Positions 24,275 to 24,366 of a stretch of DNA of 32,000 bases are shown piece after piece (the stretch's first letter is position 1; each line of letters begins with the position of its first letter). The DNA is from Rathayibacter tritici (GTDB lineage Bacteria > Actinomycetota > Actinomycetes > Actinomycetales > Microbacteriaceae): assembly GCF_002932875.1 (NCBI RefSeq), contig NZ_PSWS01000036.1, positions 56,026 through 88,025 on the forward strand, given 5' to 3'. Position numbers and translations under genes: made by a program. A model generated the notes under the pieces. It was not told the DNA's origin and ran no database searches. It was given only the letters and a program-made list of their open reading frames with translations.

Positions 24275-24366
24275 CTGCCTGCCTGCCTGCCTGCCTGCCT
24301 GCCTGCCTGCCTGCCTGCCTGCCTGCCTGCCTGCCTGCCTGCCTGCCTGCCTGCCTGCCTGCCTGC
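24275..24366. repeat. Tetranucleotide microsatellite (CTGC)23
   Basis: 23 uninterrupted units read directly. It fills the 97-bp gap between the HNH stop (24268-24270) and the convergent GMC stop (24368-24370). Confidence 0.97.

What the first reader, a model, noticed from the sequence alone, without database searches (positions are those of the whole stretch)
24275..24366. Uninterrupted (CTGC)23 microsatellite exactly filling the gap between two convergent stop codons
It consists of 92 bp of perfect tetranucleotide repeat. Arrays this long are rare in bacteria outside contingency loci, and this one has no interruptions, which implies ongoing slippage and/or selection.

It lies in the shared 3' region of the HNH gene (stop 24268-24270) and the GMC oxidoreductase (stop 24368-24370). 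It cannot phase-vary a start or promoter in the classical way. A small contraction on either edge would, however, remodel a C-terminus. CCTG/CAGG tracts form slipped hairpins, so the array might act as a structural insulator or terminator between colliding transcripts, or as a replication obstacle. It may also be the terminal feature of the adjacent HNH element. At minimum it is a ready-made hypervariable typing locus.
Basis: partly seen in the sequence, partly recalled or inferred. Interest (0 to 1): 0.65.

Follow-up and report, generated by a model that had tools for sequence, protein, structure and literature searches.

The report
Hypervariable tetranucleotide microsatellite between convergent genes
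A perfect 93-base (CTGC)n repeat sits in the tiny gap between two converging genes of a Rathayibacter plant bacterium; assemblies of related strains differ in its length, it changes neither protein, and it is most likely a fast-mutating but functionless stretch of DNA that could serve as a strain-typing marker.

Summary
Window 24275-24367 is a perfect period-4 run of 93 nt, (CTGC)23 plus C. It fills 93 of the 97 nt between the TGA of a DUF222/HNH gene (+) and the TAG of a GMC oxidoreductase (-). The organism is a Rathayibacter sp.

The same site in related assemblies carries:
- (CTGC)8 in two sister strains that are 99.4-99.8% identical in the flanks;
- four interrupted CTGC/CGGC alleles of 54-74 nt in R. 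rathayi;
- (CTGCC)3 in R. iranicus;
- an octamer array (GCTGCCGT)7-12, starting right after the HNH stop, in a sister clade.

All appear to grow from a shared GCTGCC seed. The HNH protein is identical in the 8- and 23-unit strains, and the GMC C-terminus is unchanged.

I found no U-tract terminator, promoter or Rfam match. I found no significant association between DUF222-HNH genes and 3' tandem repeats (p 0.18-0.46), and no HNH gene beside (CTGC)n arrays in other genomes.

Best reading: a neutral, slippage-driven microsatellite in an unconstrained convergent spacer at a locus rich in variable tandem repeats. It is a new member of a known kind. Exact copy numbers need read-level confirmation.

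The parts
24275..24367 (.). Perfect (CTGC)23+C microsatellite. It equals (CCTG)n by cyclic permutation and reads (GCAG)/(CAGG)n on the minus strand.
   Evidence: TRF score 186, 100% matches. Exact run of 93 nt. Motif found nowhere else in the window, 0.10 expected. Assembled length differs in orthologous loci.
24271..24279 (+). Seed and left flank 'TGCGCTGCC' directly after the HNH stop. It appears homologous to 'CACGCTGCC' in the sister clade, from which an octamer array grows instead.
   Evidence: Comparison by eye of the spacers printed.
22885..24270 (+). DUF222/HNH endonuclease gene (461 aa, 13E12-repeat family). Its stop TGA is at 24268-24270, 4 nt before the array.
   Evidence: Pfam DUF222 E 2.4e-21 and HNH E 1.8e-4. 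More than 120 distinct paralogue clusters in Rathayibacter. The protein is identical in the 8- and 23-unit strains.
24368..25900 (-). GMC-family oxidoreductase gene (510 aa). Its stop TAG (CTA on +) at 24368-24370 abuts the array; TAG+G reads as a degenerate CAGG unit.
   Evidence: Pfam GMC_oxred_N/C. GC3 profile and start position. Orthologues 85-95% identical in Rathayibacter.
21850..22740 (+). LysR-type regulator gene upstream of HNH, used as a conserved synteny anchor. An SDR gene that lies between it and HNH in other lineages is absent here.
25897..27312 (-). Alpha/beta-hydrolase gene upstream of GMC, overlapping it by 4 nt. Used as a synteny anchor.
28196..28238 (.). Second strain-polymorphic tandem repeat (13-mer CTGCCTCCGCTGA, 3.3 copies here, 2.3 in the 8-unit strain). 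It shows that slippage-type variation is general in this genome.
   Evidence: TRF. Pairwise alignment of the window with L003.

Best explanation
The array is a neutral, hypermutable microsatellite, not a functional element. It lies in the 3' non-coding spacer shared by two convergent genes of a Rathayibacter sp.: a DUF222/HNH gene and a GMC oxidoreductase gene.

In the ancestor of this clade the spacer had shrunk to about 30 nt or less and contained a short CTGCC-type proto-repeat directly after the HNH stop. Replication slippage on that seed produced tandem arrays. The unit is 4 nt in the window/R. rathayi lineage, 5 nt in R. iranicus and 8 nt in a sister clade. Gain or loss of whole units then produced the different alleles seen today. 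Point mutations (T to G, giving CGGC units) interrupt and stabilise the array in R. rathayi. The window strain carries a pure, recently expanded 23-unit allele.

Both stop codons lie outside the array, so no length change alters either protein and selection does not restrain it. The array 'fills the gap' only because almost nothing else is left of the spacer.

Shown: existence, position, orthology, inter-strain differences in assembled length and pattern, and absence of coding consequences.

Inferred: slippage as the mechanism, neutrality, and a contribution from the poor repair of loops of 4 nt or more. The MMR loop-size argument is from PMC4060949. That Actinobacteria use NucS instead of MutS/MutL is my own background knowledge and was not tested here.
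For: (1) The array is real and non-random.

(2) Orthologous alleles at the same position between the same two stop codons (for the 23- and 8-unit alleles):
- 23 units in the window and GCA_002930995.1;
- 8 units in GCA_002931485.1 and GCA_002931275.1, whose flanks are 99.4-99.8% identical to the window;
- four interrupted CTGC/CGGC alleles of 54, 62 (two different patterns) and 74 nt in R. rathayi. k=31 Logan contigs traverse two of them, which is independent assembly support;
- (CTGCC)3 in R. iranicus.

(3) In the sister clade an octamer array (GCTGCCGT or GCTGACGT) of 7.2 to about 12 copies starts 3 nt after the HNH stop, and further polymorphic 8-, 11- and 16-mer arrays lie in the same spacer. 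The first bases after the stop (GCTGCC) are shared with the window.

(4) There are no coding consequences. The HNH protein is identical in the 8- and 23-unit strains, and the GMC 3' end is unchanged. The array persists in R. rathayi, where GMC is reduced to a 166-aa remnant.

(5) Slippage-type variation is general here. Of the 3 indels in 13.5 kb between the two strains, 2 are tandem-repeat unit changes. The HNH 5' flank is also polymorphic for tandem repeats. The window has about 14 TRF arrays with score of at least 50.

(6) No functional signal was found: no sigma-70-like promoter, no U-tract terminator at the array, no Rfam family, and no tRNA.

(7) Comparable (CTGC)n arrays of at least 8 units occur sporadically in other Actinobacteria, mostly intergenic, in unrelated contexts.

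(8) Literature: tetranucleotide and longer SSRs are not suppressed in prokaryotes, possibly because MMR repairs loops of 4 nt or more poorly (PMC4060949). CCTG repeats form metastable hairpins and dumbbells that promote slippage (PMC3152338).
Against: - A pure 23-unit array is long for a bacterial isolate. Purity could reflect selection rather than recent expansion.
- Three different repeat periods arising at one site suggests something locus-specific beyond simple slippage.
- The GMC-sense RNA of the long allele folds much better than shuffles (z -6.0), and R. rathayi alleles contain a self-complementary (CCGG)n core, so a structural role is not excluded.
- The copy numbers of the pure alleles come from short-read assemblies (HiSeq 3000). 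33 nt is the length a de Bruijn graph with k=30-33 would give for any longer array.
- No transcript, read-level or mutation-rate data were available.
Confidence: 0.7

Rival explanations
1. The array is a structural RNA/DNA element. It would act as a bidirectional, U-tract-less ('I-shaped') terminator, an insulator or a 3'-end stabiliser for the two colliding transcripts, with unit number tuning read-through.
For: It occupies the whole spacer between convergent genes. The GMC-sense (GCAG)23 RNA has MFE -59.6 kcal/mol, z -6.0 against shuffles. The CAGG DNA strand has z -5.3. R. rathayi alleles contain a self-complementary GCCGGCCGGCC core, and their GMC-sense RNA has z -2.3. Several (CTGC)n arrays in other Actinobacteria also lie between convergent genes.
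Against: No T/U tract follows the array, and no terminator-like site was found at it. The HNH-sense (CUGC)23 RNA is no better than shuffles (z +0.19). The 8-unit allele shows no excess stability on either strand (z -0.7 and +0.6). Sister lineages have 222-680-nt spacers with unrelated repeats, so no conserved structure exists. The array persists where GMC is a pseudogene remnant.
Confidence: 0.12
2. The array is a by-product or a component of the DUF222-HNH element. The nuclease, or recombination among its many paralogues, would repeatedly nick or break the DNA just 3' of its own gene, and slipped repair synthesis would generate arrays of varying period. Alternatively the repeats would mark the element's terminus or target.
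For: At this locus, arrays of period 4, 5 and 8 all begin within 3-4 nt of the HNH stop in different lineages. The HNH 5' flank is also polymorphic for tandem repeats. HNH is only about 82% identical between lineages whose flanking genes are about 92% identical, which suggests faster evolution of this gene or exchange with paralogues. The family is highly expanded in Rathayibacter. In M. tuberculosis, 13E12/DUF222 genes coincide with large inversion breakpoints and are reported to be DNA-damage inducible (PMC13157036). A few distant DUF222-HNH loci have strong arrays within 30 nt of the stop (L229, L257, L225).
Against: The family-wide test is not significant. Arrays occur in 8/36 HNH 3' spacers against 5/44 other spacers (OR 2.2, p 0.23). 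Stop-proximal arrays occur at 4/64 HNH genes against 4/132 other ORFs (p 0.44). None of roughly 180 other (CTGC)n loci encodes a DUF222/HNH homologue. Two lineages at this very locus (L288, L190) have no array at the HNH stop. Tandem repeats are common in other spacers of the window.
Confidence: 0.1
3. It is a contingency (phase-variation) locus. Unit changes would switch or remodel a protein: an overlooked ORF spanning the array, or the C-terminus of HNH or GMC.
For: Long pure tetranucleotide arrays are the hallmark of contingency loci in Haemophilus and Neisseria. Mechanical ORFs 24045-24785 (+) and 24132-25157 (-) cross the array.
Against: Both stop codons precede the array in their own reading direction. 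The HNH protein is identical across alleles. The ORFs that span the array lack the third-position GC excess of real genes here (GC3 0.84 and 0.60, against 0.93-0.97 in the GMC gene), and they overlap real genes in other frames. No promoter-like site was found.
Confidence: 0.03
4. It is an assembly artefact. The array, or the difference between alleles, would be produced by de Bruijn-graph loop traversal rather than being present in the DNA.
For: The pure alleles come from short-read assemblies (HiSeq 3000, Nextera XT). 33 nt equals the minimal path for k=30-33, and 93 nt equals that for k=90-93. Logan k=31 contigs break inside the array.
Against: The array is seen in several independent assemblies. 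Interrupted orthologous alleles in R. rathayi are traversed by both the NCBI assemblies and the k=31 Logan contigs, and they differ by whole units. 150-nt reads can span 93 nt. A single-k collapse could explain both the 33-nt tetramer allele and the 30-nt 13-mer allele in the same strain only if k=30 (my reasoning).
Confidence: 0.05

Closest known systems
Bacterial simple sequence repeats / VNTR typing loci (for example the intergenic SSRs and VNTRs used for MLVA in Mycobacterium and other bacteria)
   Same: Head-to-tail short units in a non-coding spacer. Alleles differ by whole units between closely related strains. Interrupted and pure variants both occur. No effect on neighbouring proteins.
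   Different: The array is unusually long and pure for a 4-nt unit in an isolate genome (93 nt). It occupies essentially the whole spacer between two stop codons. Different unit lengths (4, 5 and 8 nt) have arisen at the same site in sister lineages.
Contingency loci of Haemophilus/Neisseria (phase-variable tetranucleotide repeats)
   Same: A long, perfect tetranucleotide tract with probable slipped-strand mutation and unit-number variation.
   Different: Those tracts lie inside ORFs or promoters and switch expression. This one lies 3' of both stop codons and changes no reading frame or recognisable promoter.
Human DM2 (CNBP intron 1) CCTG·CAGG repeat
   Same: The repeating sequence is identical, since CTGC is a cyclic permutation of CCTG. 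The CCTG strand forms metastable hairpins and dumbbells that favour slippage (PMC3152338). Here the CAGG strand folds better than the CCTG strand under DNA parameters.
   Different: The DM2 repeat is eukaryotic, intronic and 75-11,000 units long in disease. The bacterial array has 8-23 units, and nothing suggests RNA toxicity or any phenotype.
REP13E12 / DUF222-HNH repeat family of Actinobacteria
   Same: The adjacent gene is a member: DUF222 plus the HNH motif, multi-copy in the genome, and assemblies break inside it. In M. tuberculosis the family coincides with large inversion breakpoints (PMC13157036).
   Different: No tetranucleotide array is a described part of REP13E12. Here no significant family-wide link to 3' tandem repeats was found.
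Intrinsic and 'I-shaped' (U-tract-less) terminators between convergent genes
   Same: The position between convergent stops, and an imperfect GC-rich hairpin on one transcript.
   Different: There is no U tract. The fold excess appears on one strand only and only for the long allele. Neither sequence nor structure is conserved across lineages.

Membership tests
Microsatellite / simple sequence repeat | Head-to-tail tandem copies of a 1-6 nt unit | tested here: met
   Period 4, 23.2 copies, 100% identity.
Microsatellite / simple sequence repeat | Alleles differ by whole units between related genomes | tested here: met
   23 vs 8 units in assemblies 99.4-99.8% identical in the flanks. R. rathayi alleles of 54, 62 and 74 nt differ by multiples of 4 nt. 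The counts for the pure alleles are not verified at read level.
Contingency (phase-variable) locus | The repeat lies within an ORF or between promoter elements, so that unit changes switch expression | tested here: not met
   The array is 3' of both stops. The HNH protein is identical across alleles. No promoter-like site was found, and the ORFs that span the array have non-coding GC3.
Intrinsic transcription terminator | A GC-rich stem-loop followed by a U tract | tested here: not met
   No terminator-like site at the array, and no T run in or after it.
Intrinsic transcription terminator | A stable hairpin in the transcript on both strands and in all alleles | tested here: not met
   z -6.0 only for the GMC-sense long allele. 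HNH-sense gives z +0.19, and the 8-unit allele gives z -0.7 and +0.6.
Terminal or target repeat of the DUF222-HNH (REP13E12-like) element | The repeat recurs at the same end of many copies of the element | tested here: inconclusive
   At this locus, arrays start 3-4 nt after the stop in several lineages. Across 64 non-redundant metagenomic loci OR is 1.4-4.2 with p 0.18-0.46. Paralogues within one complete genome could not be fetched.
Terminal or target repeat of the DUF222-HNH (REP13E12-like) element | (CTGC)n arrays elsewhere are accompanied by the element | tested here: not met
   tblastn of HNH against about 180 loci carrying (CTGC) of at least 8 units gave no hit.
MIRU-type / interspersed repeat family | The same unit is dispersed at many intergenic sites of the genome | tested here: inconclusive
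   The motif occurs only once in the 32-kb window. The rest of the genome was not available.
Known structured RNA family (Rfam) | A match to a covariance model at gathering score | tested here: not met
   0 matches in the window.
Assembly artefact | No reads span the array, or the length is unsupported by reads | not testable with these tools
   No read access. Indirect evidence is against an artefact.

The most novel reading that the evidence does not exclude
The DNA immediately 3' of this DUF222-HNH nuclease gene is an active repeat-generating site. Nicking or breakage tied to the nuclease, to recombination among its many paralogues, or to head-on collisions at the convergent gene pair would repeatedly seed and expand tandem arrays of different period (4, 5 and 8 nt) from one GCTGCC seed. 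That would make 13E12-type HNH genes local drivers of tandem-repeat birth in Actinobacteria.
Probability: 0.1. Interest if true: 0.65.

Novelty: new member of a known kind. Interest (0 to 1): 0.35.

Why it matters
On the most likely reading, this is a ready-made, highly discriminating typing locus for a genus of nematode-vectored grass pathogens that includes the select agent R. toxicus.

It is also a natural bacterial example of the DM2-type CCTG·CAGG repeat, in an organism that (from background knowledge) lacks MutS/MutL mismatch repair. That makes it a cheap model for studying how such repeats expand, contract and become interrupted.

In addition, it is a documented trap for short-read assemblers: contigs break or may collapse here.

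Only if the low-probability reading holds, a link to the HNH nuclease, would it bear on the unresolved biology of the 13E12/DUF222 family.

Tried and rejected
- Accession search. A literature search for the WGS and SRA accessions found nothing. The organism was identified instead from the names of GMC homologues.

- Independent check of the 8-unit allele. I tried to confirm it through k=31 Logan contigs. Look-ups with the LysR, HNH and hydrolase proteins returned Logan contigs that break inside the multi-copy HNH gene, inside GMC, or 30 nt into the array. The check therefore failed.

- Inferring the assembler's k. The end of contig PSUN01000024 lies in a strain-variable region, not at a repeat, so it was uninformative.

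- Link between (CTGC)n arrays and HNH or GMC genes. tblastn against 181 loci gave no hit, so the link is rejected.

- Family-wide enrichment of tandem repeats 3' of DUF222-HNH genes. Three versions of the test on 64 non-redundant metagenomic loci all showed a weak trend and none was significant.

- Canonical terminator, promoter, Rfam family or tRNA at or near the array. None was found.

- ORFs crossing the array. Their codon-position GC is non-coding, so they are rejected.

- Viral-contig scan for the motif. It returned 61 hits, many at contig ends, and was uninformative for this question.

- Not used because not relevant: structure prediction, fold search, PADLOC, and the plasmid, phage and E. 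coli collections.

Full report
OBSERVATION

Window 24275-24367 is a perfect period-4 tandem run of 93 nt, (CTGC)23 plus one C. TRF gives 23.2 copies, 100% matches and score 186, the top score in the window. A 16-nt (CTGC)4 probe with up to 2 mismatches hits only inside the array, with 0.10 matches expected from shuffles. No other period-4 repeat of 3 or more units exists in the 32 kb.

The + strand ORF 22885-24270 encodes a 461-aa DUF222 + HNH protein (Pfam E 2.4e-21 and 1.8e-4). It ends with TGA at 24268-24270. The - strand gene 24368-25900 encodes a 510-aa GMC oxidoreductase ending with TAG at 24368-24370. The 984-aa ORF in the mechanical list is a high-GC artefact, as the codon-position GC profile shows.

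The inter-stop gap is 97 nt. The array takes 93 of these, and TGCG remains on the HNH side.

SOURCE AND INDEPENDENT COPIES

GMC and HNH homologues carry Rathayibacter names, so the organism is a Rathayibacter sp. The locus is 100% identical over 13.5 kb to GCA_002930995.1 contig PSUM01000041, which also has 23 units. It is also identical to a Logan (k=31) contig of SRR6654085 that stops 30 nt into the array.

These accessions appear to belong to the Rathayibacter genome series of Davis et al. 2018. This is my inference from the strain names; an accession search found nothing. That study sequenced with Nextera XT on a HiSeq 3000 (PMC6113626).

Two sister assemblies, GCA_002931485.1 and GCA_002931275.1, are 99.4-99.8% identical in the flanks. 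They encode the identical HNH protein but carry (CTGC)8, 33 nt.

THE SAME SITE IN OTHER LINEAGES

R. rathayi (HNH 93% identical) has the same gene order, LysR - HNH - spacer - GMC remnant. Its spacer is an interrupted tetranucleotide array of CTGC and CGGC units. It occurs in at least four alleles:
- 54 nt;
- 62 nt, in two different unit orders;
- 74 nt.

Both NCBI assemblies and k=31 Logan contigs traverse these arrays.

R. iranicus (HNH 92% identical) has a 30-nt spacer, TGCC(CTGCC)3TGAACTCTGCC.

A sister clade (HNH 81-83% identical, GMC and LysR about 92%) has spacers of 222-680 nt. In most of its strains an octamer array starts 3 nt after the HNH stop. The unit is GCTGCCGT or GCTGACGT, with 7.2, 8.2, 10.2, 11.2 or about 12 copies. 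Further copy-number-variable 8-, 11- and 16-mer arrays lie in the same spacer.

Two strains of that clade have no array at the HNH end. One of them has (CTGCC)5 near the GMC end instead.

The first bases after the stop are shared across lineages:
- TGA TGCGCTGCC... in the window;
- TGA CACGCTGCCGT... in the octamer strains;
- TGA CCGCTGCACGCTGCCG... in the array-less strains.

Arrays of period 4 and 8 therefore appear to have grown from one GCTGCC-type seed (period 5 in R. iranicus from a related CTGCC motif).

R. tanaceti has no HNH gene here but keeps a 202-nt remnant of it. The gene is therefore old at this locus.

CONSEQUENCES FOR THE NEIGHBOURING GENES

There are none. Both stops precede the array in their own reading direction. 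The HNH protein is identical in the 8- and 23-unit strains. GMC differs at 6 residues between the 8- and 23-unit strains, and the GMC 3'-terminal coding sequence shown is identical. The array persists in R. rathayi, where GMC is a 166-aa remnant. ORFs that cross the array have non-coding codon-position GC.

FUNCTIONAL SIGNALS

No sigma-70-like promoter and no hairpin-plus-U-tract terminator lies at the array. There is no Rfam family and no tRNA in the window.

As RNA:
- the GMC-sense (GCAG)23 folds to -59.6 kcal/mol (z -6.0);
- the HNH-sense (CUGC)23 is no better than shuffles (z +0.19);
- the 8-unit allele shows no excess on either strand.

As DNA, the CAGG strand folds better than shuffles (z -5.3) and the CCTG strand worse (z +3.1). 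CTGC is a cyclic permutation of CCTG, the DM2 repeat. The CCTG strand forms metastable hairpins and dumbbells that favour slippage (PMC3152338).

IS IT PART OF THE HNH ELEMENT?

The DUF222-HNH (13E12) family is highly expanded in Rathayibacter: the 120 best listed hits are distinct 90%-identity clusters, almost all named Rathayibacter. k=31 contigs break inside the gene. In M. tuberculosis the family coincides with large inversion breakpoints and is reported to be DNA-damage inducible (PMC13157036; see also PMC10589994).

I fetched 80 DUF222-HNH loci from metagenomes and tested them in three ways.
- TRF arrays of score at least 50 occur in 8/36 HNH 3' spacers against 5/44 other spacers (OR 2.2, p 0.23).
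- Arrays starting within 30 nt of the stop occur at 4/64 HNH genes against 4/132 other ORFs (p 0.44).
- Other thresholds give OR 1.4-4.2 and p 0.18-0.46.

Conversely, none of about 180 loci carrying (CTGC) of at least 8 units encodes a DUF222/HNH or GMC homologue. The link is therefore specific to this locus and not demonstrably a property of the family.

HOW UNUSUAL IS IT?

Many are MAGs, and some are probably contaminated. About 25 are in actinobacterial loci, most of them isolates (Streptomyces, Micromonospora, Cellulomonas, Arthrobacter, Agromyces, Mycetocola and others). These arrays are 34-87 nt long and mostly intergenic, and several lie between convergent genes.

A 93-nt pure array is thus in the upper tail but not unique. 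Surveys report that SSRs of 4 nt or more are not suppressed in prokaryotes, plausibly because mismatch repair handles loops of 4 nt or more poorly (PMC4060949).

The Rathayibacter genome itself is rich in tandem repeats:
- about 14 TRF arrays of score at least 50 in 32 kb;
- 2 of the 3 indels between the two strains in 13.5 kb are tandem-repeat unit changes;
- the HNH 5' flank also varies by tandem-repeat copy number.

ASSEMBLY CAVEAT

33 nt and 93 nt are the minimal loop-traversal lengths for k=30-33 and k=90-93 respectively, and I could not see reads. Four points argue against an artefact:
- several independent assemblies agree;
- the interrupted R. rathayi alleles are traversed by two assemblers and differ by whole units;
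- 150-nt reads can span 93 nt;
- a single-k collapse could explain both the 33-nt tetramer allele and the 30-nt 13-mer allele of the same strain only if k=30.

Attempts to obtain a Logan contig crossing the 8-unit allele failed.

CONCLUSION

The array is a real, orthologous, non-coding microsatellite whose assembled length differs between strains and which has no detectable functional signal. Its most likely origin is slippage on a proto-repeat in a spacer that had shrunk to almost nothing, followed by recent expansion of a pure allele in the window strain (confidence about 0.7).

The rivals are:
- a structural terminator or insulator (about 0.12);
- a repeat-generating process linked to the HNH gene (about 0.10);
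- an assembly artefact (about 0.05);
- phase variation (about 0.03).

It is a new member of a known kind. Its practical value is as a typing locus and as a natural bacterial CCTG·CAGG instability model. Interest is modest (0.35).

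Noticed in passing
window 28196-28238: A perfect 13-mer tandem repeat (CTGCCTCCGCTGA, 3.3 copies). It has one unit fewer in the sister strain GCA_002931485.1, making it a second strain-polymorphic tandem repeat in the window.
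   Followed up: partly
window 29149-29197: A 49-nt insertion/deletion relative to the sister strain (L003) that is not an obvious tandem repeat. It lies upstream of the L28-L33-S14 ribosomal protein paralogue cluster (window about 29395-30106).
   Followed up: no
window 7432-7499: A 15-mer tandem repeat (CGAGAGCCCCGTCCG, 4.6 copies, 98% matches, TRF score 129), the second strongest array in the window. Its context and polymorphism were not examined.
   Followed up: no
window 22741-22884; L190 7118-8750; L192 5531-6876: An SDR (adh_short, 278 aa) gene lies between HNH and LysR in Rathayibacter sp. VKM Ac-2801, and between GMC and LysR in R. tanaceti. It is absent in the window lineage, where only 144 nt separate LysR from HNH.
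   Followed up: partly
L192 5592-5792 (R. tanaceti): A 202-nt remnant, 83% identical to the middle of the window's HNH gene, sits in the GMC-SDR spacer of a species that has no HNH gene there. The HNH gene is therefore ancient at this locus and was later deleted.
   Followed up: partly
L195 3967-4467; L205 3953-5409: In R. rathayi the GMC oxidoreductase is reduced to a 166-aa C-terminal remnant next to a GntP permease gene. In R. iranicus it is split into 325- and 161-aa ORFs. This indicates pseudogenisation in these species while the microsatellite persists.
   Followed up: partly
L195 2339-2404, L198 1055-1133, L289 1714-1832 (HNH 5' flanks): The LysR-HNH spacer also varies by tandem-repeat copy number: a 16-mer at 3.1-4.1 copies in R. 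rathayi, a (TCTCTCTCTT)7.9 insertion in one strain, and 31-33-mer versus 12-mer arrays in the sister clade.
   Followed up: partly
window 22885-24270; The DUF222-HNH family is very highly expanded in Rathayibacter, with many distinct paralogues per complete genome. k=31 assemblies break at different points inside the gene. HNH is about 82% identical between lineages whose flanking genes are about 92% identical, which may indicate faster evolution of this gene or exchange with paralogues.
   Followed up: partly
window 16109-18113 (- strand): A D-Ala-D-Ala ligase-family gene overlaps a D-2-hydroxyacid dehydrogenase gene by a few bases, a vanA/vanH-like pair, next to the PutA gene (18277-21732).
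   Followed up: no
L068, L096, L125, L132, L154 (MAG CBDHHR01, 'Metamycoplasmataceae'): One MAG carries many very long (CTGC)n arrays (up to about 360 nt) on many contigs with 43-57% GC. This looks like eukaryotic host contamination rather than bacterial sequence.
   Followed up: no
L091 376-414, L145 2561-2595, L110 4426-4468, L133 4649-4691: In other Actinobacteria (Streptomyces, Brevibacterium, Mycetocola and an actinomycete MAG), (CTGC)n arrays of 35-43 nt also lie within a few to tens of nt of gene 3' ends, twice between convergent ORFs.
   Followed up: partly
L203 and L204 (Logan contigs of R. rathayi runs): Two k=31 contigs end inside the interrupted array although it contains no repeated 31-mer. 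This could reflect length heterogeneity within the sample, or a drop in coverage.
   Followed up: no
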